Shown one piece after another: positions 4,229-13,637 of a stretch of DNA of 42,313 nucleotides. Position 1 is the first letter of the stretch. Each line of letters starts with the position of its first letter. A program made the position numbers and the translations under genes. Location: contig JAOUEE010000001.1 in the NCBI GenBank assembly GCA_029858875.1, positions 1 through 42,313 of the forward strand. Direction: 5' to 3'. The notes beneath the pieces are model-generated. The model ran no database searches, was not told the origin of the DNA, and was given only the letters and a program-made list of their open reading frames with translations. Source of the DNA: Acidimicrobiia bacterium (GTDB taxonomy: Bacteria; Actinomycetota; Acidimicrobiia; Acidimicrobiales; SHLQ01).

Positions 4229-5152
4229 GTGGTGCTGGTCGCCTGTGCTCGTCGCCCACGCCGCGCCCGACATCGCGGCGGGCGGAGATCGGCGCCCGCG
4301 AGCGCCGGGTTGGTACTGCTCGTGCTGGCGGGGGCCTGTGGTGGCGGTGATGGTGATGCGGCTCCGACGTGTGCTGCGGCCGTGACCGAGCTCGGATCGC
4401 TCGACGGTGAGGGTCCCTCCGAGGCCAGCGGCCTGGTCCGGAGCCGGATCACCGAGGGGGTCCTGTGGACCCACAACGACCGCGGTCGACCGGCCGAGCT
4501 CATCGCCATCGACCCGGCGGGCCGGGCGCTCGGAACCTGGCCCGTTCAGGACGCGCCAAACATCGACTGGGAGGACCTCTCGATCCTCGGTGGGCCGGGC
4601 CAGGCCGAGCTCGTCGTCGGCGACATCGGTGACAACGATGCCGAGCGGGCCTCGGTGACGATCCACTATCTGACCGAGCCCGACCCCGGGGAAGACCCGA
4701 TCGTTCTGCGCCCGGTCGACACGGTGGAGCTCCGCTACCCCGACGGCCCCCATGATGCCGAGGCCCTGCTGGTCGATGGCCGCAGCGGCGAGGTCGGATT
4801 GGTCACCAAGGGCGACGACGCTGTGCTGTACGTCACCGACGCCGATCCCCGTGCCTCGGTCGATCAGCCCATCGTGTTGCGCAAGGTGGGCACCGTCTGG
4901 TCCGACGCCGAGGTACGAGCCGGGGCCGTCAGCCCCGACGGGGGGCTGGTCGCGCTCCGAACCGTCGATGGCCTGCGTGTGTGGCGCGACGATGGTCCTG
5001 CACTGGCCCGTCTCGTCGACCGACCGTCGTGCACGGTCGTCCTCGAGCAGAAGCGAGCGGAGGGCCTGGCCGCACCCGACGCCCACACCCTGATCGCCGT
5101 CGGCGAGGGCAAGCAGGCCAGCCTCTTCGAGGTCCGGCTGGCCGAGGATTGA
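4229..5152 (+). CDS. Secreted lipoprotein of unknown function (beta-propeller-like repeats)
   Basis: GAGGAGG lies 10 nt upstream of the GTG start. Arg-rich n-region, then LVLLVLAGAC with a lipobox-like Cys. Repeated EASGL / WTHNDRG / DWEDLS / GDIGDN patterns. No family recognised with confidence. Confidence 0.7.
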   Translation: MVLVACARRPRRARHRGGRRSAPASAGLVLLVLAGACGGGDGDAAPTCAAAVTELGSLDGEGPSEASGLVRSRITEGVLWTHNDRGRPAELIAIDPAGRALGTWPVQDAPNIDWEDLSILGGPGQAELVVGDIGDNDAERASVTIHYLTEPDPGEDPIVLRPVDTVELRYPDGPHDAEALLVDGRSGEVGLVTKGDDAVLYVTDADPRASVDQPIVLRKVGTVWSDAEVRAGAVSPDGGLVALRTVDGLRVWRDDGPALARLVDRPSCTVVLEQKRAEGLAAPDAHTLIAVGEGKQASLFEVRLAED

Positions 5153-5212
5153 CCGTCGGCGGCGCGCCAGACGGTCACTCTGCGTGGTCAGAACGAGGCG
5201 ACCCGCGGCCGA

Positions 5213-5271
5213 TGTTTCGATTCGAAAACACCGTTCGACGAGCCCGGGAAGGTCATCTACCGTCGAATCGA
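5213..5271. promoter_or_regulatory. TTCGA-rich palindromes in the 240-nt leader of the RND operon
   Basis: TGTTTCGATTCGAAAACA (5213..5230). TCGATTCGA (5217..5225) is the exact reverse complement of TCGAATCGA (5263..5271). TTCGACG (5234..5240) pairs with CGTCGAA (5261..5267). Function unknown. Confidence 0.25.
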
Positions 5272-5392
5272 AGCTGAACGCAGCCTGACTCGATCCTGGG
5301 GGACAGAGTCGGGGGCGGACTTCCCCACCGATTTTCGGATCATCGAAGGCTGTGGGGCAGATGGGGAGCAACGACGGGAAGGTGGGTTCCGG

Positions 5393-8300
5393 ATGATGCG
5401 ACGAATCGTGGGGGCAAGTCTGCTCCGTCCGACGCTGGTGCTGGTGCTGGCGGCGGCCGTGCTGGTGTTCGGTTTCGTGGGGTCGGGCAGCACCCAGGTG
5501 GACTCGCTTCCCCACTTCTCGCCGGTCGTGGTCGAGGTGCAGACCGAGGCGCTGGGGCTCTCGGCCGCTGAGGTGGAGCAACTCATCACCGTGCCCCTCG
5601 AAGCCGACCTGCTCAACGGCGTGGCCTGGCTCGACACCATCCGATCCGAGTCCATCCCCGGGCTGTCGACCATCCGGCTCACGTTCGAGGAGGGCACCGA
5701 TCTGCTCGAGGCCCGCCAGGTGGTCCAGGAACGACTCACCCAGGCGGCCGGCCTGCCCAACGTGTCGCGGGCCCCCTCCATGATCCAGCCCTTGTCCTCG
5801 GAGAGCCGGGTGATGATGATCGGGCTGTCATCGGACGAGGTGTCGCTCATCGACATGTCGGTCCTGTCCCGGTGGACCGTCCGGCCCTTCCTCATGGGCG
5901 TTCCCGGTGTGGCCAACGTGTCGGTGTGGGGCCAGCGCGAGCGTCAGCTGCAGGTACAGGTCGAACCCGACGACCTCGAGGCGGCCGACCTCACGCTGCT
6001 CGACGTCGTGAAGACCACCGGCAACGCCCTCTGGGTGTCGCCGCTGAGCTATCTCGAGGCGTCCACGCCGGGCACGGGCGGTTTCATCGACGGCCCCAAC
6101 CAGCGCATCGGCGTGCAGCACGTGTTCGCCATCGACGGCCCCGAGGACCTGGCCGCGGTCACCGTGGAAGGCGCCGATGGCATCACGCTCGGCGATGTGA
6201 CCACGGTGCTCGAGGACCACCAGCCCCTCATCGGCGATGCGCTCGTGGACGAGGGTCCGGGCCTGCTGCTCGTCGTCGAGAAGTTCCCGTGGGCCAACAC
6301 GGTGGAGGTGACCGAGGCCGTCGAGGACGCCCTCGTCGAGCTCGCGCCCGGCATGACCGGCATCGACGTCGACACCGAGCTGTTCCGCCCGGCCAGCTAT
6401 GTCGAACGGTCGATCGACAACGTGCAGACCACTGCGGTGGTGGCGTTGGTGCTGGCCATCGTGGTCCTGTTCGCCCTCTTCTACAGCTGGCGCGCGGCCC
6501 TGATCAGCCTGGTCGCGTTGCTGACCTCGCTCGCCGGCGTCGCCGTGATCCTCAACATCACCGACACCACCGTGGATCTGATGGTGATGGCCGGCGTCCT
6601 GGTGGCGTTGGGCCTGGTCATCGACGACAGCATCGGTTCGGTGGCCGCCCTGCGTCGTCCCGACGACGATGCCGATGAAACGGCGCCGCTCCCGTTCATC
6701 CAGCGTGCGGTCGTCAGTAGTCGATCCCCGATGGTGTACGCCACGGTGGCGATGGCGTTCGCCATCGTGCCGGTGTTCGCCATGGAGGGCGCCGCCGGCG
6801 AATTCCTCCCGTCCGTCGCACTCGCCATGGTCCTCACGCTGGTGGTGTCGCTCGTCATCACCCTCACGGTGGTGCCCGCCATGGGTCTGTTGTTGGCCGG
6901 CGCCGACGGGTCGAAGCTGCACCGGACCTCGCCGCTGTTGGCGCCGGTTGGTCGTCTCTACGGCAAGGTGATGCATCGCTGGACCAGCCGTGCGACCGGT
7001 GCGCTGATCGCCTCGATCGTGTTGGTGGCTCTGGCCGCGGCCCTCCTGCCGACCCTCGACAAGGAATTCGTCCCCGACTTCCGACAGACCGATCTCGTGG
7101 TGGCGTTCGACGGGGTGGCCGGCACCTCGCTGGAGGAAACGAGCCGGGTCACGGCGCTGGCCGGCGCCGAGCTGCGGACGGTGCCCGGCGTCGAGGACGT
7201 CGGCATCCACGTCGGTCGAGCCATCCTGTCGGACGAGACCGTCAACGTGAACGCCGGTGAGCTGTGGGTCCGGATGGACCCCGACGCCGACTACCGACGG
7301 ACCCTCGACTCCATCCGGGCGGTGGTCCAGGGCTATCCGGGCTTCGGCGTCCCGGATGCGCTGAGCTACTCGAACGAGCGGGTGGATGCCCTGCTGCGCC
7401 AGCGCAGCGACGACCTGGTGGTCAGGGTCTACGGCGAGGATCCCGTCGTCCTGGGCGGCCTCGCCGACGAGGTGGCGGCGATGGTGGCCGGTGTGGAGGG
7501 CACCGCCAACGTTCGTGCGGTGCACCCGATCCTGCAACCGACCGTCGAGATCGAGGTCGACCTCGAGCGGGCCGAGCAGTACCAGGTGAAGCCGGGCGAC
7601 GTGCGCCGAGCGGCGGCCACGCTGCTGTCCGGTATCGAAGTGGGCAGCTTCTTCGAGGAGCAGAAGGTCTTCGAGGTGGTGGTGTGGAGCCCACCCGAGC
7701 GGCGCAACAGCGTGACCGCCATCGAACAGCTCAACATCGACACTCCCAGCGGTGATGTCGTGGCGCTGTCCGAGGTGGCCGATGTTCGAGTGGCTCCCAA
7801 TGAGCAGGTCATCGAGCGTGACGCCGTGTCGCGCTACATCGACGTCGTGGCTGATCTCTCCGGTCGGGACCGCGATGCCGTGGCCGGAGACATCACCGAT
7901 CAGATCGAGGCTCAGGGCCTGCCCTTCGAGTACCACGTGCGCATCCTCGACGATCGCAGCGACGCCGCCGCCAACCAGCGTCAGGTGATCGGCATCGCCA
8001 TCGGGGCCGCCATCGCCGTCTTCCTGCTGCTCCAAGCCGCCTTCCGGAGCTGGCGTCTGGCCGGCGTGCTGCTCCTGGTGCTGCCTCTCGGTCTGGTGGG
8101 CGGAATCGTGTCCCTGACTCTCACCGGCGGGACCTACTCCATCGGATCTGCGGTGGGATTCCTCGCGGTCGGCGGACTGACGGTGCGGGCCGTGCTGGCG
8201 TTGTCCGGTCGGTACGAGACGCTCCAGCTCGATCAGGGAGTGGCCTTCGACCAGGACCTCGTCACCAAGGGGGCCCGCGAGCAGTTCACGCCCACGCTCA

Positions 8301-8518
8301 TCACCCTGGTCACCGTTGCGGTGGTGATGGCCACCATCGTGGTGTCGGGCGAGGTCGCCGGCCAAGAGGTGGCCCGGCCGGCGGCCATCGTGGTGCTCGG
8401 GGGGCTGGTCACCGTGGCCATGGCGGCCCTGTTCGTGTTCCCGGCGCTGTACGGGCGGTTCGGCGCCGCGGCCCAGCCCAGAGAATCGCTCTTGACGACC
8501 CGATCGGGGGATGTATGA
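5393..8518 (+). CDS. RND efflux permease, CzcA/AcrB superfamily, paralogue 1
   Basis: 1041 aa. The N-terminus has the typical RND pattern (MMRRIVGASLLRPTLVLVL...). TM4 carries IDD at residues 410-412 (D411-D412). Two large extracytoplasmic loops and a 12-TM layout are evident. GGGAAGG lies upstream of the ATG. Confidence 0.9.
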   Translation: MMRRIVGASLLRPTLVLVLAAAVLVFGFVGSGSTQVDSLPHFSPVVVEVQTEALGLSAAEVEQLITVPLEADLLNGVAWLDTIRSESIPGLSTIRLTFEEGTDLLEARQVVQERLTQAAGLPNVSRAPSMIQPLSSESRVMMIGLSSDEVSLIDMSVLSRWTVRPFLMGVPGVANVSVWGQRERQLQVQVEPDDLEAADLTLLDVVKTTGNALWVSPLSYLEASTPGTGGFIDGPNQRIGVQHVFAIDGPEDLAAVTVEGADGITLGDVTTVLEDHQPLIGDALVDEGPGLLLVVEKFPWANTVEVTEAVEDALVELAPGMTGIDVDTELFRPASYVERSIDNVQTTAVVALVLAIVVLFALFYSWRAALISLVALLTSLAGVAVILNITDTTVDLMVMAGVLVALGLVIDDSIGSVAALRRPDDDADETAPLPFIQRAVVSSRSPMVYATVAMAFAIVPVFAMEGAAGEFLPSVALAMVLTLVVSLVITLTVVPAMGLLLAGADGSKLHRTSPLLAPVGRLYGKVMHRWTSRATGALIASIVLVALAAALLPTLDKEFVPDFRQTDLVVAFDGVAGTSLEETSRVTALAGAELRTVPGVEDVGIHVGRAILSDETVNVNAGELWVRMDPDADYRRTLDSIRAVVQGYPGFGVPDALSYSNERVDALLRQRSDDLVVRVYGEDPVVLGGLADEVAAMVAGVEGTANVRAVHPILQPTVEIEVDLERAEQYQVKPGDVRRAAATLLSGIEVGSFFEEQKVFEVVVWSPPERRNSVTAIEQLNIDTPSGDVVALSEVADVRVAPNEQVIERDAVSRYIDVVADLSGRDRDAVAGDITDQIEAQGLPFEYHVRILDDRSDAAANQRQVIGIAIGAAIAVFLLLQAAFRSWRLAGVLLLVLPLGLVGGIVSLTLTGGTYSIGSAVGFLAVGGLTVRAVLALSGRYETLQLDQGVAFDQDLVTKGAREQFTPTLITLVTVAVVMATIVVSGEVAGQEVARPAAIVVLGGLVTVAMAALFVFPALYGRFGAAAQPRESLLTTRSGDV

Positions 8519-8946
8519 AACGGCAGGTGCTGATCGTGCTGGTGAGCGTGGCGGCGCTCGTGCCGGCCGCGTGTGGCGACGATGACTCCGACTACGTCTA
8601 CGAGGAGCCGGCGACGGTCGAGGAGATCGGTGCGGATCTCTGGCGCATCGAGCTGACCGAGCAGGCCGCGGCGCGCACCGGCGTGGAGACGGCGATGGTG
8701 GCCAGCGACACGGTGGGCGGTGAGCAGATGCTCGTGGTGCCGTACTCGTCGGTCATGTACCACTTCGACGGATCGACGTGGGCGTACACCAACCCCGAGC
8801 CGTACGTCTACGTACGTGCCCCCATCGAGATCGATCACATCGACGGCGAGTCGGCCATCCTGAGCGCGGGACCCGACGAGGGCACCGCGGTGGTCTCCGT
8901 CGGCGCGGCCGAGCTGTACGGCGTCGAATTCGGCGTCGGGAAGTAG
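8515..8946 (+). CDS. Mini periplasmic-adaptor (MFP)-like lipoprotein; only the membrane-proximal and beta-barrel segments are present
   Basis: 143 aa. Signal peptide plus LVPAAC lipobox-like Cys. IELTEQAAARTGVETAMV resembles the MFP N-terminal strand. QMLVVPYSSVMYHFDGSTW...VRAPIEIDHIDGESAILSAGPDEGTAVVSVGAAELYGVE resembles the CusB/CzcB C-terminal barrel. Its ATG overlaps the RND1 TGA (ATGA). Confidence 0.7.
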   Translation: MKRQVLIVLVSVAALVPAACGDDDSDYVYEEPATVEEIGADLWRIELTEQAAARTGVETAMVASDTVGGEQMLVVPYSSVMYHFDGSTWAYTNPEPYVYVRAPIEIDHIDGESAILSAGPDEGTAVVSVGAAELYGVEFGVGK

Positions 8947-8982
8947 ATCTCCGATGACCACGGGCCGCGGAGGTCGAGCGTC

Positions 8983-11900
8983 ATGATGCGGTGGGTGGTG
9001 GCGACCAGCCTGCGCTTCAAGTACCTCGCCGTGTTCTTGCCGCTGGCCATGATGGTGTCGGGTGGACTGGCTCTCCAGGGCGCCCCGGTCGATGTGTTTC
9101 CCGAGTTCGCGCCACCCCGCGTCGAGGTCCAGACCCCGGCGCTCGGTCTGTCGCCGGCCGAGGTCGAGCAACTCGTCACGGTGCCGCTCGAGGACGCGCT
9201 GAACGGGGTCGCCGGCCTCGAGACGATCCGTTCGAAGTCGGTGTCGGACCTGTCTTCGATCCTGCTCATCTTCGAGCCGGGGACCGATGTGATCGGGGCT
9301 CGCCAGCTCGTCCAGGAGCGCCTCGACGTCACCATCCCCACGCTGCCCAAGTGGGCGGCGCCGCCCGTGATGTTGCAGCCGCTGTCGGCCACGAGCCGGG
9401 CTATGAAGATCGGGTTAACCTCCGATGAGCACTCACTGATCGATCTGTCGATGACGTCGTACTGGCGCATCCGCCAGCGGCTCATGCGAGTCCCGGGCGT
9501 GGCCAACGTGGCCATCTGGGGTGAGCGGTTGGAGATGTTCCAGGTACAGGTCGAGCCGGAGCGTCTCAACGCCAACCAGATCTCGCTCAACGAGCTGATG
9601 ACGGTCACCGCCGACGCGCTCGACTCGGGCATCCTCCAGTATTCCGACGGAGCCATGGTGGGCACCGGTGGCTTCATCGAGACGCCCAACCAGCGGCTCG
9701 GTGTGCGCAACAAGCTGCCCATCGTCGGTGCCGACGAGCTGGCCCAGGTGGCCATCGCGGAGCGCGACGGCGAGGTGCTGCGCCTCGGCGACCTGGCCGA
9801 CGTGGTGATCGATCATCAGCCGCTGATCGGCGATGCCGTCATCAACGACGGGCCGGGTTTGATGCTCATCGTCGAGAAGTTCCCGTGGGGCAACACGCTC
9901 GAGCTCACCGAGGGCGTCGAGGAGGCGCTGGACGAGCTGGCCCCGGGCCTGCCCGGCGTGGAGATCGACAGCGAGATCTTCCGACCGGCGACCTTCATCA
10001 GCCTCTCGCTGAGCAATCTCCAGTCGGCCATGCTCATCGGATCGGTCCTGGTCGTCATCATCCTGTTCCTCTTCCTCTACGAATGGCGGGTGGCGCTCAT
10101 CAGCCTGGTGGCCATCCCGCTGTCGCTCGTGTCGGCCGCCCTCGTGCTCTACGCCCGAGGAACCACCATCAACGTGATGGTGCTGGCGGGGTTCGTGATC
10201 GCGCTGGGTGCCGTGGTCGACGACGCCATCATCGATGTGGAGAATATCGTTCGCCGCCTTCGGCTGCATCGGGCCGACGGTGATTCGGCCTCGACGGCCC
10301 GCGTCATCCTGGGAGCATCTCTCGAGGTGCGCAGTGCCATCGTCTACGCCACGCTCATCGAGGTCGCGGCGCTGGTCCCGGTGTTCTTCCTCGAGGGATT
10401 GTCGGGGGCCTTCTTCCGCCCGCTGGCGACGTCGTACGGGTTGGCCATCCTCGCCTCGATGCTGGTCGCGCTCACCGTCACCCCGGCCCTGAGCCTGATC
10501 CTGCTGCGCAACGCCCCCCTCGAACGGCGGGCCTCGCCGATCGTGCCGCCGCTCACCCGCGGGTACAACGCCATCACGACGAGGATCGTGCGGTCACCCA
10601 AGCCGGCGTACGCCGCGGTGGCCACCTTGGTGATCGCCGGCCTGCTCGTCGTCCCGTCGCTCGGCCAGGAGCTGCTGCCGTCGTTCAAGGAACGTGACTT
10701 CCTCATGCACTGGCTCACCCGTCCGGGCACGTCGCAACCGGAGATGCACCGCATCACCAGCGCGGTCAGCCCCGAGCTGCGATCGATCGACGGGGTACGC
10801 AACTTCGGCGCCCACATCGGACAGGCGCTCATCGCCGATGAGGTGGTGGGCATCGACTTCGGTGAGAACTGGATCAGTGTCGATCCGTCCGTCGACTACG
10901 ACCAGACCGTCGATGAGATCCAGACCACCGTGGACGGCTATCCCGGACTGTTCCGCGACGTCCAGACCTACCTGAAGGAGCGGATCCGCGAGGTGTTGAC
11001 CGGATCGAGCGATGCCATCGTCGTGCGGATCTTCGGCCCGGACCTCGAGGTGCTCGACGACAAGGCCCACGAAGTCGAAGACCGACTGAGCCAGGTCGAA
11101 GGGCTCACCGACCTGCACGTGGAGCTGCACGTGAAGGTGCCCAAGATCCAGGTCGAGTTGGATCTGGACGGTGCCGAGAGCTACGGGCTCAAACCGGGCG
11201 ACGTGCGGCGGGCCGTGGCCACGATGGTGGCCGGCGAAGAAGTGGGTGACATCTTCCAGGGCGGGCGGGCCTTCGACGTGCAGGTGTGGAGCACGCCCGA
11301 GGTCCGCGACAGCGTCGACGACATCGGGCGACTGCTCATCGACACGCCCAGCGGTGACCAGGTGCCCCTCGACGAGGTGGCCTCGGTGCGCATCGAGCCC
11401 ACCGACAGCTCCATCGAACGAGAGAACCAGTCCCGTCGACTCGACGTGAGCGCCAATGTCGGCGGTCGTGACCTCGGCGCCATTGCCCGCGATGTCGAGG
11501 CCGTGGTCGACGCCATCGACTTCCCCCTCGGCCACAGCGCCGAGATCATCGGGGAGTACCAGGAGCGCCAGGAGACGCAAGGATCGCTGCTGCGGTACTC
11601 GCTGCTGGCCGCGGTGATCATCTTCGTGTTGCTCTTCGTGTCGTTCTCGTCGCTGCGGCTGGCGGTGCTGAGCTTCGTCTGTCTGCCCGCAGCACTGGTG
11701 GGGGGCGTGCTCGCCGCCTGGTTCACGGGGGGAATCATCTCGCTCGGTTCGCTCGTCGGATTCCTGACCGTGCTCGGGATCGCCGCCCGCAACGGGATCA
11801 TGATGATCAACCACTTCCAGCACCTGGAGAACGAGGAGGGAATGACCTTCGGGCCGGCCCTCGTGCTGCGGGGCGCCGAGGAGCGTCTGGCGCCGATCCT

Positions 11901-12114
11901 CATGACGGCACTCACCACGGGTCTGGCGCTGCTCCCCCTGGTGGTGGCCGGCGACATCGCCGGCCACGAGATCGAGCACCCGATGGCCATCGTGATCCTG
12001 GGCGGACTGGTGACCTCCACCATCCTCAACCTGTTCGTGGTGCCCTCGCTGTATCTGCGCTTCGGCGGCCGGGATGGCGATCAGGCTCCAGCGGTGGCGG
12101 CCAGCGCCGGCTGA
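8983..12114 (+). CDS. RND efflux permease, CzcA/AcrB superfamily, paralogue 2
   Basis: 1043 aa. GGAGG lies 8 nt upstream of the ATG. TM4 has the canonical GAVVDDAIIDVENI motif; TM10 reads GIAARNGIMMINHF. Clearly paralogous to 5393..8518 along its full length. Confidence 0.9.
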   Translation: MMRWVVATSLRFKYLAVFLPLAMMVSGGLALQGAPVDVFPEFAPPRVEVQTPALGLSPAEVEQLVTVPLEDALNGVAGLETIRSKSVSDLSSILLIFEPGTDVIGARQLVQERLDVTIPTLPKWAAPPVMLQPLSATSRAMKIGLTSDEHSLIDLSMTSYWRIRQRLMRVPGVANVAIWGERLEMFQVQVEPERLNANQISLNELMTVTADALDSGILQYSDGAMVGTGGFIETPNQRLGVRNKLPIVGADELAQVAIAERDGEVLRLGDLADVVIDHQPLIGDAVINDGPGLMLIVEKFPWGNTLELTEGVEEALDELAPGLPGVEIDSEIFRPATFISLSLSNLQSAMLIGSVLVVIILFLFLYEWRVALISLVAIPLSLVSAALVLYARGTTINVMVLAGFVIALGAVVDDAIIDVENIVRRLRLHRADGDSASTARVILGASLEVRSAIVYATLIEVAALVPVFFLEGLSGAFFRPLATSYGLAILASMLVALTVTPALSLILLRNAPLERRASPIVPPLTRGYNAITTRIVRSPKPAYAAVATLVIAGLLVVPSLGQELLPSFKERDFLMHWLTRPGTSQPEMHRITSAVSPELRSIDGVRNFGAHIGQALIADEVVGIDFGENWISVDPSVDYDQTVDEIQTTVDGYPGLFRDVQTYLKERIREVLTGSSDAIVVRIFGPDLEVLDDKAHEVEDRLSQVEGLTDLHVELHVKVPKIQVELDLDGAESYGLKPGDVRRAVATMVAGEEVGDIFQGGRAFDVQVWSTPEVRDSVDDIGRLLIDTPSGDQVPLDEVASVRIEPTDSSIERENQSRRLDVSANVGGRDLGAIARDVEAVVDAIDFPLGHSAEIIGEYQERQETQGSLLRYSLLAAVIIFVLLFVSFSSLRLAVLSFVCLPAALVGGVLAAWFTGGIISLGSLVGFLTVLGIAARNGIMMINHFQHLENEEGMTFGPALVLRGAEERLAPILMTALTTGLALLPLVVAGDIAGHEIEHPMAIVILGGLVTSTILNLFVVPSLYLRFGGRDGDQAPAVAASAG

Positions 12115-13637
12115 GCGGGGTCCGAGGTCGACCCCGACCAGTGCCGATGGCCCGATCGACCGATGGTCACGGCCAGCACGGCCAGGATCACCATGGGCCA
12201 CACACCGAAGCGCACGGCCCAGGTCCGGCCGGTCCGGAGCTCGACGGTGCCGTGGAGCACCGCCTGCTCGGAGATCGCGGTGCGCGCCAGCACGTTGCCA
12301 TCGCTGTCGATGATGGCGCTGAAGCCGGTCGGCGCCGCCTGGAGGACCCAGCGGTCGGTCTCGAGCGCCCGCAGGCGGGTGGATGCCATCTGCTGGGTCT
12401 GCACGATGGTGAGCCAGTACGACGACCCATTGGTGGGATTCAGGAGCAACTGACCGCCATTGCCGATGGCGTCGCGGGCCCGGTTGTCGAAGAACACCTC
12501 CCACGAGATCGACACCCCGAGTGCGCCGACGGGTGTCTCCACCACCGCCGGTTCGGTGCCGGGCCTCACGTGGCGGGCCGGGAGGGAGTCCCCGGCGAAG
12601 CGTTCGATGAGGCCGCGCAGGGGCACGAACTCGCCGAAGGGCACGGTGCGCACCTTGTCGTAGCGGTCACCCCGGCTGCCGTCGGGGAGCCACACATCGG
12701 TGAAGTTGACGTTCTCGGTGTCGGAGACCTTGTAGAACCAGCCGGGCAGCAGCGGCGCGCCCAGCTCCACGGCCAGCTCCGACACGCAGGCCTCGGCCAG
12801 GGGCAGGGTGAACGGGCCGTCGATGGATCCCCGGCCGGTGCCGTCGACCGCGAGCGGGCACGAGTCGACCGGCGCCGGCTCGTCGATGATCTCGGGATTG
12901 ACGACGTTCTCGGGCCACAGCACCAGATCGACGCCGTCGTTCACCGCGGCCGACGCCGCCACGTGGCGTTCGAAGACCAAACGAGCCCCCTCGGCGCTGG
13001 CCCGCGTCCGCTGTTCGCCGCCGCCCTGCACGACGGCCACGTCGATGGTGTCCACGACCGTGGCCCTGGGAGCCACGACCACCAGAAGTGCGGCCAGGCC
13101 GAGCACCACCCCGGTGCCGATGATGGTGGGTCGGTGGCGCTCGGCCAACCCGGCCAGGCCCATCCCCACGGCCACGACCAGGGCGGTGAGCAAGAGGGCG
13201 CCGAACACCCGCACCGTGGGGGCCAGCGGCGCCTGGGCCTGACTCATGGCGAGAGTGGCCAGGGGAACGCCGCCGAAGGGCCACGACCAGCGGACCAGCT
13301 CGGTGAGCACCACGGCGCCCGGGAATGCCACTCGTCGCCATCGTGACGGAGGGGAGATGGCACCGGCGACCCCCAGCAGCGACGCGTGGAACAGGACGGC
13401 GAGCACGTATCCCGGGGGCGTGAGGTCGAACATCCAGAGCATCGACGGGAAGAACCAACCCATGCCGACGAGGGCCATGCGTCGAAAACGGATGCCGGCC
13501 ACCCGGGCCCGCAGCAGCGAGTCGGCCAGCGCGAAGCCGACGAAGGCCAGGGGCCACCATCCCCACGGGGGCATCGCGGCGGCGATGCAGAATCCGGCCG
13601 CCAGGCAGCGGATGGTGATGATCAGGCGGTGGGACAC
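12081..13637 (-). CDS. lnt: Apolipoprotein N-acyltransferase homologue (Lnt, CN-hydrolase domain) with Ser at the catalytic Cys position
   Basis: 518 aa. Multi-TM N-terminal half. WPEN (Glu) and YDKVRTVPFGEFVP (Lys) are conserved. The ICYE-equivalent reads ISWE (ATC TCG TGG GAG on the minus strand, about 12501..12512). The 3' end overlaps RND2 convergently by 34 nt. Confidence 0.8.
   Translation of the reverse strand: MSHRLIITIRCLAAGFCIAAAMPPWGWWPLAFVGFALADSLLRARVAGIRFRRMALVGMGWFFPSMLWMFDLTPPGYVLAVLFHASLLGVAGAISPPSRWRRVAFPGAVVLTELVRWSWPFGGVPLATLAMSQAQAPLAPTVRVFGALLLTALVVAVGMGLAGLAERHRPTIIGTGVVLGLAALLVVVAPRATVVDTIDVAVVQGGGEQRTRASAEGARLVFERHVAASAAVNDGVDLVLWPENVVNPEIIDEPAPVDSCPLAVDGTGRGSIDGPFTLPLAEACVSELAVELGAPLLPGWFYKVSDTENVNFTDVWLPDGSRGDRYDKVRTVPFGEFVPLRGLIERFAGDSLPARHVRPGTEPAVVETPVGALGVSISWEVFFDNRARDAIGNGGQLLLNPTNGSSYWLTIVQTQQMASTRLRALETDRWVLQAAPTGFSAIIDSDGNVLARTAISEQAVLHGTVELRTGRTWAVRFGVWPMVILAVLAVTIGRSGHRHWSGSTSDPAQPALAATAGA

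What the first reader, a model, noticed from the sequence alone, without database searches (positions are those of the whole stretch)
5393..12114. Two paralogous CzcA/AcrB-type RND pumps flanking a 143-aa hairpin-less mini-adaptor lipoprotein, with no outer-membrane factor
The operon order is RND1, a 143-aa lipoprotein, then RND2. RND1 and the lipoprotein overlap as ATGA (8515..8518), so they are probably translationally coupled. RND2 follows after 36 nt with its own GGAGG.

The lipoprotein keeps the MFP N-terminal strand (IELTEQAAARTGVETAMV) and a CusB/CzcB-like C-terminal barrel (MLVVPYSSV...ILSAGPDEGTAVVSVGAAELYGVE). It lacks room for the lipoyl and alpha-hairpin domains, which normally dock an outer-membrane channel.

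The neighbouring genes (Rpf, HelD, Lhr) point to a monoderm actinobacterium, so a tripartite envelope-spanning pump is not expected. The arrangement suggests a two-pump heteromer in the manner of MdtBC, with a minimal adaptor. I am not aware of a characterised example of this architecture.
Basis: partly seen in the sequence, partly recalled or inferred. Interest (0 to 1): 0.6.

Follow-up and report, generated by a model that had tools for sequence, protein, structure and literature searches.

The report
Paired RND pumps with stripped-down adaptor
Two related membrane efflux pumps flank a small lipoprotein that is an efflux adaptor reduced to the one domain that touches the pump; this three-gene set recurs across many bacterial phyla with no outer-membrane channel, so it looks like a natural minimal version of a well-known drug and metal efflux machine.

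Summary

- **Pumps:** both are full-length ACR_tran proteins, 44% identical to each other.
- **Small protein:** it has no Pfam hit, but it is an adaptor (MFP/PAP) reduced to its membrane-proximal domain. The fold matches only the MP domain of SilB, CusB, ZneB, MexA and BesA. Its C-terminal 73 residues align with genuine 390-aa MFPs (hhalign 99.7%).
- **Relatives:** these sit in canonical OMF-MFP-RND operons. About 250-aa intermediates (MP plus beta-barrel) also exist.
- **Synteny:** RND-mini-RND holds in about 60 loci. Hosts include Actinomycetota, Chloroflexota and Dormiibacterota, but also the diderm Bacteroidota and Proteobacteria.
- **Tree:** the tree fits a single RND duplication.
- **Asymmetry:** RND2 keeps an invariant AcrB-like proton relay, while RND1's is relaxed.
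- **Own genome:** it has no other RND, no full MFP, no OMF and no Omp85.

An MdtB2C-like heteromer activated by the mini-adaptor is the best reading, but it is inferred. The substrate is unknown, and the CzcA/CusA label is not met. This is a new variant of a known kind.

The parts
5153..5392 (+). Leader upstream of RND1. The promoter and any operator are not identified.
   Evidence: No sigma-70 consensus site was found in 4900-12400. An earlier first-reader note (e1-3311730) reports TTCGA palindromes at 5213-5271; this was not tested here.
5393..8518 (+). RND1: the upstream, faster-evolving RND permease paralogue (1041 aa).
   Evidence: PF00873 at 508 bits, matching profile positions 4-1018 of 1021. 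It falls with the upstream ('up') RNDs in the tree. It keeps the TM4 Asp-Asp pair and the TM10 Arg, but has VAA in place of VEN and Gln in place of the TM11 Arg.
6611..6652 (+). RND1 TM4 segment GLVIDDSIGSVAAL, a partly degenerate proton-relay motif.
   Evidence: Across the 48 upstream ('up') RNDs analysed (47 loci plus the window): first Asp 33, second Asp 48, Glu replaced by D21/E13/R4/A3/H3, and the Asn position variable.
8515..8946 (+). Mini-adaptor: a 143-aa probable lipoprotein made only of an MFP membrane-proximal domain.
   Evidence: AF2 pLDDT is 87.3. The top Foldseek hits are all adaptor MP domains: SilB 5a4g, CusB 3ne5, ZneB 3lnn (60 columns, 1.2 A), TriAB, BesA and MexA. The profile against PDB sequences finds TriAB at E=0.001. 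hhalign to full MFPs gives 99.7%, E=2.6e-25. There is no Pfam or NCBIfam hit.
8515..8574 (+). Signal peptide with lipobox; Cys20 is encoded at 8572-8574.
   Evidence: The sequence is MKRQVLIVLVSVAALVPAAC. The Cys column holds Cys in 42 of 47 homologues. Pro at position -3 is atypical, so lipidation is probable but not shown.
8515..8518 (+). ATGA overlap of the RND1 stop and the mini-adaptor start, indicating translational coupling.
   Evidence: A -4 overlap or similar is seen in 21 of 47 loci.
8969..8973 (+). GGAGG ribosome-binding site, 9 nt before the RND2 ATG.
8983..12114 (+). RND2: the downstream, highly conserved RND permease (1043 aa).
   Evidence: PF00873 at 735 bits. It is 58-81% identical to the downstream RND of every paired locus, across phyla. 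It lies in a single 'down' clade (support 100), which groups with the RNDs that pair with full-length MFPs (that joint clade also has support 100).
10207..10248 (+). RND2 TM4 segment GAVVDDAIIDVENI, an intact AcrB-like proton relay.
   Evidence: Across the 54 sequences of the paired-downstream group: D413, D414, D418 and N421 in all 54; E420 in 53. Also R936 and R968 in all 54, and T975 in 53.

Best explanation
This is a self-contained three-gene efflux module derived from a canonical OMF-MFP-RND pump.

**How it arose.** The outer-membrane factor was lost. The adaptor was cut down by an internal deletion of about 250 residues, removing the beta-barrel, lipoyl and hairpin domains. What remains is the membrane-anchored membrane-proximal (MP) domain. 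The RND gene was duplicated once.

**How it probably works.**
- RND2 keeps an invariant Asp-Asp / Arg / Arg proton relay and probably supplies the proton-driven conformational cycle.
- RND1 evolves faster and has a relaxed relay. It probably acts as a specialised partner, for example for substrate capture or scaffolding, within a mixed trimer. This would resemble MdtB2C.
- The mini-adaptor is tethered to the cytoplasmic membrane. It probably binds the porter domain of the pump near the membrane and does what the MP domain does in full adaptors: it stabilises the pump, activates it, or vets substrate entry. It has no channel to open.
- Substrate is released outside the cytoplasmic membrane. That means the wall zone in this monoderm host, or the periplasm in diderm hosts.

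**Shown:** gene structure, the fold and homology of the mini-adaptor, descent from tripartite relatives, conserved synteny, the asymmetry between paralogues, and the absence of OMF and full MFP from the genome.

**Inferred:** the heteromer, the activating role of the adaptor, the direction of transport and the substrate.
For: **The mini-adaptor is an MP-only MFP.**
- The top 28 Foldseek hits are all adaptors, and the low-rmsd alignments cover only 60-78 columns.
- The profile hits the C-terminal MP parts of both halves of the TriA-TriB fusion.
- hhalign to six 386-409-aa proteins gives 99.7%, 47% identity over 73 columns. Four of these were scanned with Pfam and carry HlyD_D23 and HlyD_3 above cut-off.
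- The N-terminal 'V-L-T-E-x-A-A-x-R-x-G-I-E-T' segment also matches the N-terminus of those MFPs (consensus lines).

**Descent from a tripartite pump.**
- The Myxococcaceae relative sits in an OEP-MFP-RND operon.
- Intermediates of about 250 aa fold as MP plus beta-barrel: CusB E=6e-8, MexA about 168 columns.
- About 30% of the best 150 family representatives (45) are 220-340 aa. They match the profile in two stretches separated by an insert, which is the nested topology of MFPs.

**The module is conserved.**
- RND-mini-RND occurs in about 60 of 80 loci with tight spacing.
- The family has 1,944 representatives (50%-identity clusters) at E<=1e-10.

**The duplication is old and single.** The 53 downstream RNDs from loci where the small gene lies between two RNDs form one clade with support 100. 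Upstream and downstream RNDs co-diversify, with r=0.88 between their pairwise identities.

**The paralogues are asymmetric.**
- Relay residues are present in 53-54 of 54 downstream RNDs but are relaxed in the upstream ones.
- 315 columns are >=95% conserved in the downstream set, against 144 in the upstream set.

**No other partners exist.** The host genome has only these two ACR_tran genes, no TIGR01730 MFP, no OEP and no Omp85. No OMF or MFP lies next to the module in Kribbella, Lewinellaceae or an Alphaproteobacteria MAG.

**Literature.**
- The MP/C-terminal domain of MFPs is the part that stimulates transporters.
- MdtB2C divides proton relay and substrate binding between its paralogues (PMC4338810).
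Against: - No physical evidence of a heteromer or of adaptor binding exists. No tool here folds complexes, and the run-finding tool (look-up of sequencing runs) was closed, so no reads were examined.
- Co-inheritance and correlated divergence are expected for any two genes in one operon.
- RND1's relaxed relay could equally mean an independent pump with different coupling, or slow decay.
- One orphan small gene has no RND within 8 kb (Ignavibacterium, L048).
- The window's lipobox has Pro at -3, which is atypical.
- Foldseek E-values for the 143-aa model are modest (1.6e-3 at best) because the domain is small. The homology call therefore rests mainly on hhalign and tblastn.
Confidence: 0.6

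Rival explanations
1. RND1 and RND2 are two separate homotrimeric pumps with different substrates. They are kept in one operon and share, or only one uses, the mini-adaptor. There is no heteromer.
For: - Both proteins are full-length, and each keeps the second TM4 Asp and the invariant R139.
- Some genomes encode one mini-adaptor before each RND (small-RND-small-RND in L098/L099). That would fit two autonomous adaptor-pump pairs.
- Most RND pumps are homotrimers (general knowledge).
Against: - The pairing is almost never broken across phyla: about 60 loci, from what the tree suggests was one duplication.
- The upstream paralogue has lost otherwise invariant relay residues in many lineages: first Asp in only 33 of 48, TM10 Arg replaced by Tyr in 6, TM11 Arg replaced by Gln in 8. 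This is hard to reconcile with an autonomous proton-driven pump.
Confidence: 0.2
2. Only RND2 plus the mini-adaptor is the working pump. RND1 is a decaying or non-transporting paralogue, for example a pseudo-transporter that persists as a regulator or by hitch-hiking.
For: - RND1 has longer branches, 0.49 against 0.64 mean pairwise identity, and less than half as many conserved columns.
- In the window it has VAA for VEN and Gln for Arg.
- RND1 is split in some MAGs.
Against: - RND1 is an intact ORF of about 1040 aa in 47 loci spanning several phyla. It still has 144 columns that are >=95% conserved, and its second TM4 Asp is invariant.
- Of the five loci with a split RND gene, four are MFD MAGs. 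If these are nanopore assemblies (my assumption, not checked here), assembly error would explain them. RND2 is split there too (L041, L052).
- Translational coupling to the adaptor is conserved.
Confidence: 0.1
3. The small protein is not an adaptor in function. It is instead a substrate-binding chaperone, in the manner of CusF or the CusB N-terminus, that hands substrate to the pumps.
For: - The best Foldseek hit is the SilB construct that combines a metal site with the MP domain.
- The pumps' nearest solved relatives are ZneA and CusA.
Against: - No His, Met or Cys column is conserved in the mature part. The invariant residues are Arg, Tyr, Pro, Gly, Leu, Ala and Glu.
- There is no Pfam hit at E<=1, so no known metallochaperone family (such as CusF) is matched.
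- The fold match is to the MP domain itself, not to a metal-binding extension.
Confidence: 0.1

Closest known systems
MdtABC-TolC of E. coli and MuxABC-OpmB of P. aeruginosa (heteromultimeric RND pumps)
   Same: - Two paralogous RND permeases sit in one operon, 44% identical here against about 50% for MdtB/MdtC.
- The proton relay is asymmetric, and one paralogue is the better-conserved 'engine' (PMC4338810).
   Different: - This module is not orthologous: MdtB/MdtC NCBIfam scores are 272-276 against cut-offs of 1584-1774.
- The adaptor gene sits between the two RND genes.
- The adaptor has one domain instead of four.
- There is no OMF.
- Stoichiometry is unknown.
CusCBA and ZneCAB/CzcCBA heavy-metal RND systems
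   Same: - These are the nearest solved relatives of both pumps (ZneA E=6e-103 and 2.5e-71) and of the adaptor fold (CusB, ZneB, SilB).
- Glu residues at 620, 628, 666 and 670 of RND2 align with ZneA D602, E610, D654 and D658. They are conserved in 52-54 of 54 downstream RNDs.
   Different: - Both pumps score below the TIGR00914 cut-off.
- TM4 lacks the first Asp that ZneA has (DFG) and instead carries an AcrB-like Asp-Asp pair with a basic TM10 residue.
- The CusA Met triad aligns to His, Phe and Glu.
- ZneA E136 aligns to an invariant Arg.
- There is no OMF, and the adaptor lacks three of its four domains.
BesA of Borrelia (hairpin-less adaptor) and EmrA (adaptor without an MP domain)
   Same: Both are precedents for adaptors that have lost whole domains (PMC4446572; PMC13328181). 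BesA is among the fold hits.
   Different: - BesA still has lipoyl, beta-barrel and MP domains, and works with the OMF BesC.
- EmrA lost the opposite end of the protein.
- Here only the MP domain is left. Neither the 2015 nor the 2026 adaptor review describes an MP-only adaptor in the passages retrieved by term search.
MmpS5-MmpL5 of mycobacteria
   Same: A roughly 15-kDa membrane-anchored accessory protein is encoded with an RND pump in an actinobacterium. It is needed for pump trimerisation and activity, and no classical OMF or MFP is involved (PMC12501195).
   Different: - The pump is of a different RND subfamily: HAE-2 MmpL there, while here PF03176 scores only 23 bits on RND2.
- MmpS has an Ig-like domain and a TM helix, not an MFP MP domain.
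- MmpL5 is a single gene, not a pair.

Membership tests
RND permease superfamily (Pfam PF00873 ACR_tran) | End-to-end match to the roughly 1020-position model, above the gathering score. | tested here: met
   RND1 scores 508 bits (positions 4-1018) and RND2 scores 735 bits (positions 3-1019), against a cut-off of 28.
RND permease superfamily (Pfam PF00873 ACR_tran) | Proton-relay residues in TM4, TM10 and TM11 (AcrB D407/D408, K940, R971; numbering from memory). | tested here: met
   RND2 has D413, D414, R936 and R968, conserved in 54 of 54 downstream RNDs. RND1 meets this only in part: it keeps DD and the TM10 Arg but has Gln at the TM11 Arg position and VAA for VEN.
HME-RND (CusA/CzcA, NCBIfam TIGR00914) | Score at or above the curated cut-off of 701 bits. 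| tested here: not met
   RND2 scores 589 bits and RND1 scores 350 bits.
HME-RND (CusA/CzcA, NCBIfam TIGR00914) | TM4 signature D-F-G-x3-D-G...E-N (as in ZneA) or the CusA Met triad M573/M623/M672. | tested here: not met
   RND2 has A-L-G-A-V-V-D-D where ZneA has D-F-G-I-I-V-D-G. The CusA triad aligns to H576, F626 and E670 (conservation).
Membrane fusion protein / periplasmic adaptor (TIGR01730, PF16576, PF13437) | Model match, and the four-domain architecture (MP, beta-barrel, lipoyl, hairpin). | tested here: not met
   No Pfam or NCBIfam hit. The 143 residues fold into a single all-beta domain with two short helices.
Membrane fusion protein / periplasmic adaptor (TIGR01730, PF16576, PF13437) | MP-domain fold, and sequence homology to the MP domain of bona fide MFPs. 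| tested here: met
   Foldseek hits to CusB, ZneB, SilB, MexA and BesA cover the MP domain only. hhalign to MFPs of the HlyD_D23/HlyD_3-positive set gives 99.7%.
Membrane fusion protein / periplasmic adaptor (TIGR01730, PF16576, PF13437) | Anchoring to the cytoplasmic membrane by a lipid or a TM helix. | tested here: inconclusive
   A signal peptide with A-A-C is present, and the Cys is found in 42 of 47 homologues. Pro at -3 is atypical, and lipidation cannot be shown from sequence.
MdtBC-type heteromeric RND pump | Two paralogous RND genes in one operon. | tested here: met
MdtBC-type heteromeric RND pump | Obligate mixed trimer (B2C). | not testable with these tools
   No tool here predicts complexes, and no biochemistry is available.
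MdtBC-type heteromeric RND pump | Orthology to MdtB/MdtC, and dependence on a full MFP plus TolC. | tested here: not met
   NF007798 scores 272 against 1584 and NF007905 scores 276 against 1774. The genome has no full MFP and no OEP.

The most novel reading that the evidence does not exclude
The module is a so-far undescribed class of OMF-independent, heterotrimeric RND machine. In it, an adaptor reduced to the MP domain alone is sufficient and necessary to assemble or activate the pump. It would be a natural minimal RND-adaptor core, spread by horizontal transfer through monoderm and diderm phyla. Variants with an in-frame RND1-adaptor reading frame, and variants with one adaptor per RND, hint that each adaptor is dedicated to a particular protomer.
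Probability: 0.4. Interest if true: 0.75.

Novelty: new variant of a known kind. Interest (0 to 1): 0.62.

Why it matters
Two questions are open in the efflux field. What does the adaptor do to the transporter, apart from opening the outer-membrane channel? And why do adaptors exist at all in bacteria that have no outer membrane?

Reviews note as a puzzle that Gram-positive adaptors keep their hairpins (PMC4446572, PMC4338810). Here evolution appears to have run the deletion experiment. The lineage lost the channel and then shed the hairpin, lipoyl and barrel domains, but it kept the MP domain under strong conservation. Intermediates are still extant.

That makes the idea that the MP domain is the transporter-activating module directly testable, in a small natural system. 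Members exist in cultured, harmless actinomycetes (Kribbella, Catellatospora, Cryobacterium).

The module also adds a second, independent and far more widespread case of paired RND paralogues with an asymmetric proton relay. This bears on how heteromeric RND pumps divide labour.

The family is large: 1,944 cluster representatives at E<=1e-10. It has no Pfam or NCBIfam model, and the sources that name it call it 'hypothetical protein'.

Tried and rejected
- **Family scans of the small protein.** Pfam and NCBIfam gave nothing significant. The best hit was E=0.29, to the C-terminus of the DarC adaptor.
- **Single-sequence phmmer against PDB.** Nothing relevant. A profile was needed.
- **CusF-like or metal-chaperone reading.** Rejected, because no His, Met or Cys is conserved in the mature protein.
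- **CusA/CzcA membership.** Rejected on cut-off, TM4 signature and Met triad.
- **'Monoderm adaptation' as the sole cause.** Weakened by diderm hosts that carry the same OMF-less module.
- **RND1 pseudogenisation.** Suggested by split genes in L001/L002, but judged an assembly artefact. The splits lie mostly in MFD MAGs, which I take to be nanopore assemblies (not checked here), and they hit RND2 as well.
- **Promoter and terminator scan.** Uninformative for the operon: no promoter-like site, and the only terminator-like site (6874-6886) lies inside RND1.
- **The look-up of sequencing runs.** Closed, so no expression data were obtained.
- **The ZneA structure paper.** Not held, so the ligand roles of ZneA D602/E610/D654/D658/E136 rest on my memory. 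The presence of those residues in the ZneA sequence was checked.
- **Literature searches.** No description of an MP-only adaptor or of this operon was found.
- **Earlier scan findings, searched by sequence.** None.

Full report
**1. Observation**

The ORF map and translations confirm the three genes exactly as described.
- RND1 is 5393-8518 (1041 aa).
- The small ORF is 8515-8946 (143 aa). Its ATG overlaps the RND1 TGA, giving ATGA at 8515-8518.
- RND2 is 8983-12114 (1043 aa), 36 nt after the small gene's stop, with GGAGG at 8969-8973.

Both large proteins match PF00873 (ACR_tran) from end to end, at 508 and 735 bits. They are 44% identical over 1033 residues. A convergent Lnt-like gene on the minus strand (12081-13637) overlaps the last 34 nt of RND2, so the operon ends there.

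**2. What the small protein is**

It has no Pfam or NCBIfam match and no single-sequence PDB match. It is nevertheless a well-conserved family.
- The word-indexed search found 297 homologues of 138-160 aa. Every one that carries a name is called 'hypothetical protein'.
- An exhaustive profile search found 2,596 representatives (50%-identity clusters) at E<=1e-3, and 1,944 at E<=1e-10.

An alignment of 47 members (A1) shows a signal peptide ending in A-C, with the Cys present in 42 of 47. The invariant residues are R54, P76, Y77, Y82, G86, Y91, R101, L116, G130, A132, G136 and E138. No His, Met or Cys is conserved in the mature part.

AlphaFold2 on A1 gives a confident single domain, all-beta with two short helices (pLDDT 87.3). 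In Foldseek against the PDB, the top 28 hits are all periplasmic adaptors. The low-rmsd alignments (1.2-3.6 A) cover only 60-78 columns, which is the membrane-proximal (MP) domain. The hits include:
- the SilB 'N-terminal metal site + MP domain' construct, 5a4g;
- CusB in CusBA, 3ne5;
- ZneB, 3lnn (60 columns, 1.2 A);
- TriAB, BesA, MexA and AcrA.

The A1 profile also finds the TriA-TriB fusion by sequence (E=0.001). It aligns to the C-terminal end of each half.

**3. Direct homology to full adaptors, and intermediates**

A scan of species-representative genomes returned 80 loci. In Myxococcota and Acidobacteriota, the match (query residues about 70-143) is the C-terminus of a protein of about 390 aa lying directly upstream of a single RND gene.
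- Four of these proteins were scanned and carry HlyD_D23 and HlyD_3 above the Pfam cut-off.
- One lies in a canonical OEP-MFP-RND operon, followed by a two-component system.
- Profile-profile comparison of A1 with six such MFPs gives 99.7% probability, E=2.6e-25, and 47% identity over 73 columns. It runs to the shared C-terminal 'VGAAELYG-x-EFGVG[KH]'.
- The N-terminal 'V-x-L-T-E-x-A-A-E-R-x-G-I-E-T-x-x-V' segment of the mini-protein also matches the N-terminus of these MFPs (consensus lines).

The mini-protein is therefore the N-terminal strand/helix plus the C-terminal part of an MFP. These are the two pieces that together make the MP domain. The roughly 250 nested residues (beta-barrel, lipoyl, hairpin) have been deleted.

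Intermediates exist.
- Proteins of about 250-275 aa in Anaerolineales loci (L067, L068, L072, L078) fold as MP plus beta-barrel (AF2 pLDDT 73.5). Their Foldseek hits are CusB at 6e-8, MexA at about 168 columns, and the hairpin-less BesA.
- Where both flanks are on the contig, these too lie between two RND genes.
- About 30% of the best 150 family representatives (45) are 220-340 aa. They match the profile in two stretches separated by an insert.

It is the MP domain, and the beta-barrel domain is gone as well.

**4. Synteny and distribution**

RND, then small gene, then RND is found in about 60 of the 80 loci and in all three metagenomic contexts examined first.

Monoderm or monoderm-like hosts:
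- Acidimicrobiales;
- many Actinomycetes, including cultured Kribbella, Catellatospora and Cryobacterium;
- Gaiellaceae;
- Chloroflexota (Thermomicrobiales, Anaerolineae, Limnocylindria);
- Dormiibacterota.

Diderm hosts:
- Lewinellaceae, Saprospiraceae and Phaeodactylibacter (Bacteroidota);
- Alpha- and Gammaproteobacteria MAGs;
- Verrucomicrobiia.

Gene calls with Pfam tags show no OMF and no full MFP next to the module in a Lewinellaceae genome, in Kribbella alba, or in an Alphaproteobacteria MAG.

Spacing is tight. The median is 7 nt from the upstream RND to the small gene, with 21 of 47 junctions overlapping and many of those as ATGA. The median is 17 nt from the small gene to the downstream RND.

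Within Actinomycetota the module is patchy: 26 of 401 species genomes, 20 of 249 genera, and 4 of 41 close relatives. In both RND trees the Bacteroidota copies sit next to the Acidimicrobiales copies. Together this indicates an accessory module that moves horizontally as a unit.

**5. The two pumps**

A FastTree of 114 RNDs from these loci gives the following.
- The 53 downstream RNDs from loci where the small gene lies between two RNDs form one clade (support 100).
- That clade groups with the 11 single RNDs that pair with full-length MFPs (joint clade support 100).
- The upstream RNDs lie outside, on longer branches.

The tree fits a single duplication that predates the module's spread. It is midpoint-rooted, and the upstream RNDs do not form one clean clade.

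Upstream and downstream copies co-diversify: the Pearson r between their pairwise identities is 0.88. The upstream copy evolves faster, with mean identity 0.49 against 0.64 and 144 against 315 columns that are >=95% conserved.

The proton-relay positions show the asymmetry clearly.
- Downstream group (54 sequences): D413, D414, D418, N421, R936, R968 and P971 are present in all 54. E420, N937 and T975 are present in 53.
- Upstream group (48 sequences): the first Asp is kept in 33 and the second in all 48. The Glu is D/E/R/A/H, the Asn is variable, the TM10 Arg is Tyr in 6, and the TM11 Arg is Gln in 8.
- The window's RND1 keeps DD and the TM10 Arg but has VAA for VEN and Gln for the TM11 Arg.

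This agrees with an earlier first-reader note on the same genome (e1-3311729).

**6. Is it a CzcA/CusA pump?**

Only by nearest neighbour. ZneA and CusA are the best solved relatives, and TIGR00914 is the best NCBIfam model. Both proteins, however, score below its cut-off (589 and 350 against 701).

The residue-level alignment shows the following.
- RND2 has A-L-G-A-V-V-D-D where ZneA has D-F-G-I-I-V-D-G. It lacks the first Asp that ZneA has, and instead carries an AcrB-like Asp pair with a basic TM10 residue.
- The CusA Met triad (M573/M623/M672) aligns to His, Phe and Glu.
- RND2 E620, E628, E666 and E670 align with ZneA D602, E610, D654 and D658. They are conserved in 52-54 of 54 downstream RNDs but relaxed in the upstream ones.
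- ZneA E136 aligns to an Arg that is invariant in all clades.

That those ZneA residues ligate Zn(II) is from my memory of Pak et al. 2013, since the paper was not held. A divalent-cation substrate is therefore a lead and nothing more.

**7. The host genome**

The assembly is 4.06 Mb and 93.7% complete. It holds only these two ACR_tran genes. No TIGR01730 hit comes near the cut-off: the two weak hits are 40-residue matches inside frames of about 700 aa. There is no OEP and no Omp85. The controls ring in the expected diderm genomes. A full adaptor or channel encoded elsewhere is thus very unlikely.

**8. Mechanism**

The literature supports two points (PMC4338810; PMC13328181).
- The MP/C-terminal domain of adaptors is the part that contacts the transporter's periplasmic domain and stimulates it.
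- In MdtB2C, one paralogue supplies the proton relay while the other binds substrate.

By analogy, RND2 would be the engine and RND1 a specialised partner in a mixed trimer. The lipid-anchored MP-only adaptor would bind the porter domain near the membrane to stabilise or activate the pump. Substrate would be released outside the cytoplasmic membrane. MmpS5-MmpL5 is a functional parallel from another RND subfamily (PMC12501195).

None of the physical steps is shown. I put 0.6 on this reading, 0.2 on two independent homotrimers, 0.1 on a non-transporting RND1, and 0.1 on a chaperone role for the small protein.

**9. Variants seen**

- Two species of one actinobacterial genus have the upstream RND and the small protein in one open frame (1247 and 1108 aa). 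The former signal peptide and lipobox lie internally. This may be a true fusion, or merely a lost stop codon with an internal start.
- Two other genomes carry small-RND-small-RND, meaning one mini-adaptor per pump.
- A fourth family of lipoprotein-like proteins (230-330 aa) has no Pfam, NCBIfam or PDB hit. It flanks the module in about 28 loci from several phyla. It is not next to the window's module; only a 29%-identical relative lies elsewhere in the genome.

**10. Novelty**

Term searches of the 2015 and 2026 adaptor reviews, together with my full-text searches, turned up four-domain adaptors, the hairpin-less BesA and the MP-less EmrA. They turned up no MP-only adaptor and no such operon.

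The parts belong to known kinds (RND permease, MFP), so this is a new variant and not a new category. It is nonetheless a large, unannotated family. It bears directly on what the MP domain does and on why adaptors persist without an outer membrane.

**Limits**

- No complex could be predicted.
- The tree is FastTree only.
- Lipidation is inferred from sequence.

Noticed in passing
L096:4822-8565 (-) and L097:6889-10215 (-): In two species of one actinobacterial genus, the upstream RND and the mini-adaptor share a single open frame (1247 and 1108 aa). The adaptor's signal peptide and lipobox (LLLSSC) lie internally. This is either a natural RND-adaptor fusion or a lost stop codon with an internal start.
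   Followed up: partly
L098:7244-11353 (-) and L099:6818-10903 (+): Variant gene order small-RND-small-RND. A second, more divergent mini-adaptor paralogue (33-36% identical to the window's) precedes the upstream RND, so each pump has its own adaptor.
   Followed up: partly
L094:5736-6692, L004:13474-14379, L095:13799-14671, L002:12612-13595, L093:3875-4579 (-); distant relative in the own genome at L101 (G000:C23:10479-11249): A fourth conserved family of lipoprotein-like proteins (230-330 aa) has no Pfam, NCBIfam or PDB-sequence match. It flanks the RND-mini-RND module in about 28 loci from Actinomycetota, Chloroflexota, Bacteroidota and Proteobacteria. It is absent from the window.
   Followed up: partly
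L078:7467-8216, L072:4829-5587, L068:3320-4144, L067:2804-3565: Mid-size adaptors (about 250-275 aa; MP plus beta-barrel) in Anaerolineales carry a strongly acidic low-complexity insert (DDDEEAEG...DDVEDDD) inside the barrel region.
   Followed up: partly
window 12081-13637 (-): An apolipoprotein N-acyltransferase (Lnt) homologue (LNT_N + CN_hydrolase) converges on the operon and overlaps the last 34 nt of RND2. An earlier first-reader note says its catalytic Cys is replaced by Ser; this was not checked here.
   Followed up: partly
window 4229-5152 (+): A 307-aa ORF directly upstream of RND1 has a lipoprotein-like N-terminus (LAGACGGG) and no family hit. Its only match among the loci is a 24%-identical stretch (E=7e-12) about 2.5 kb downstream of the module in a Saprospiraceae genome (L039:14017-14772).
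   Followed up: no
L048:7983-8435: An Ignavibacterium genome carries a full-length mini-adaptor homologue (43% identity) with no RND gene within 8 kb on either side. This is the only orphan found where both 8-kb flanks are held.
   Followed up: partly
L001, L002, L041/L095, L052: RND genes are split into two called genes in several MFD MAGs, which I take to be nanopore assemblies (not checked here). Either paralogue can be affected, so these are most likely frameshift errors of assembly and not pseudogenes.
   Followed up: partly
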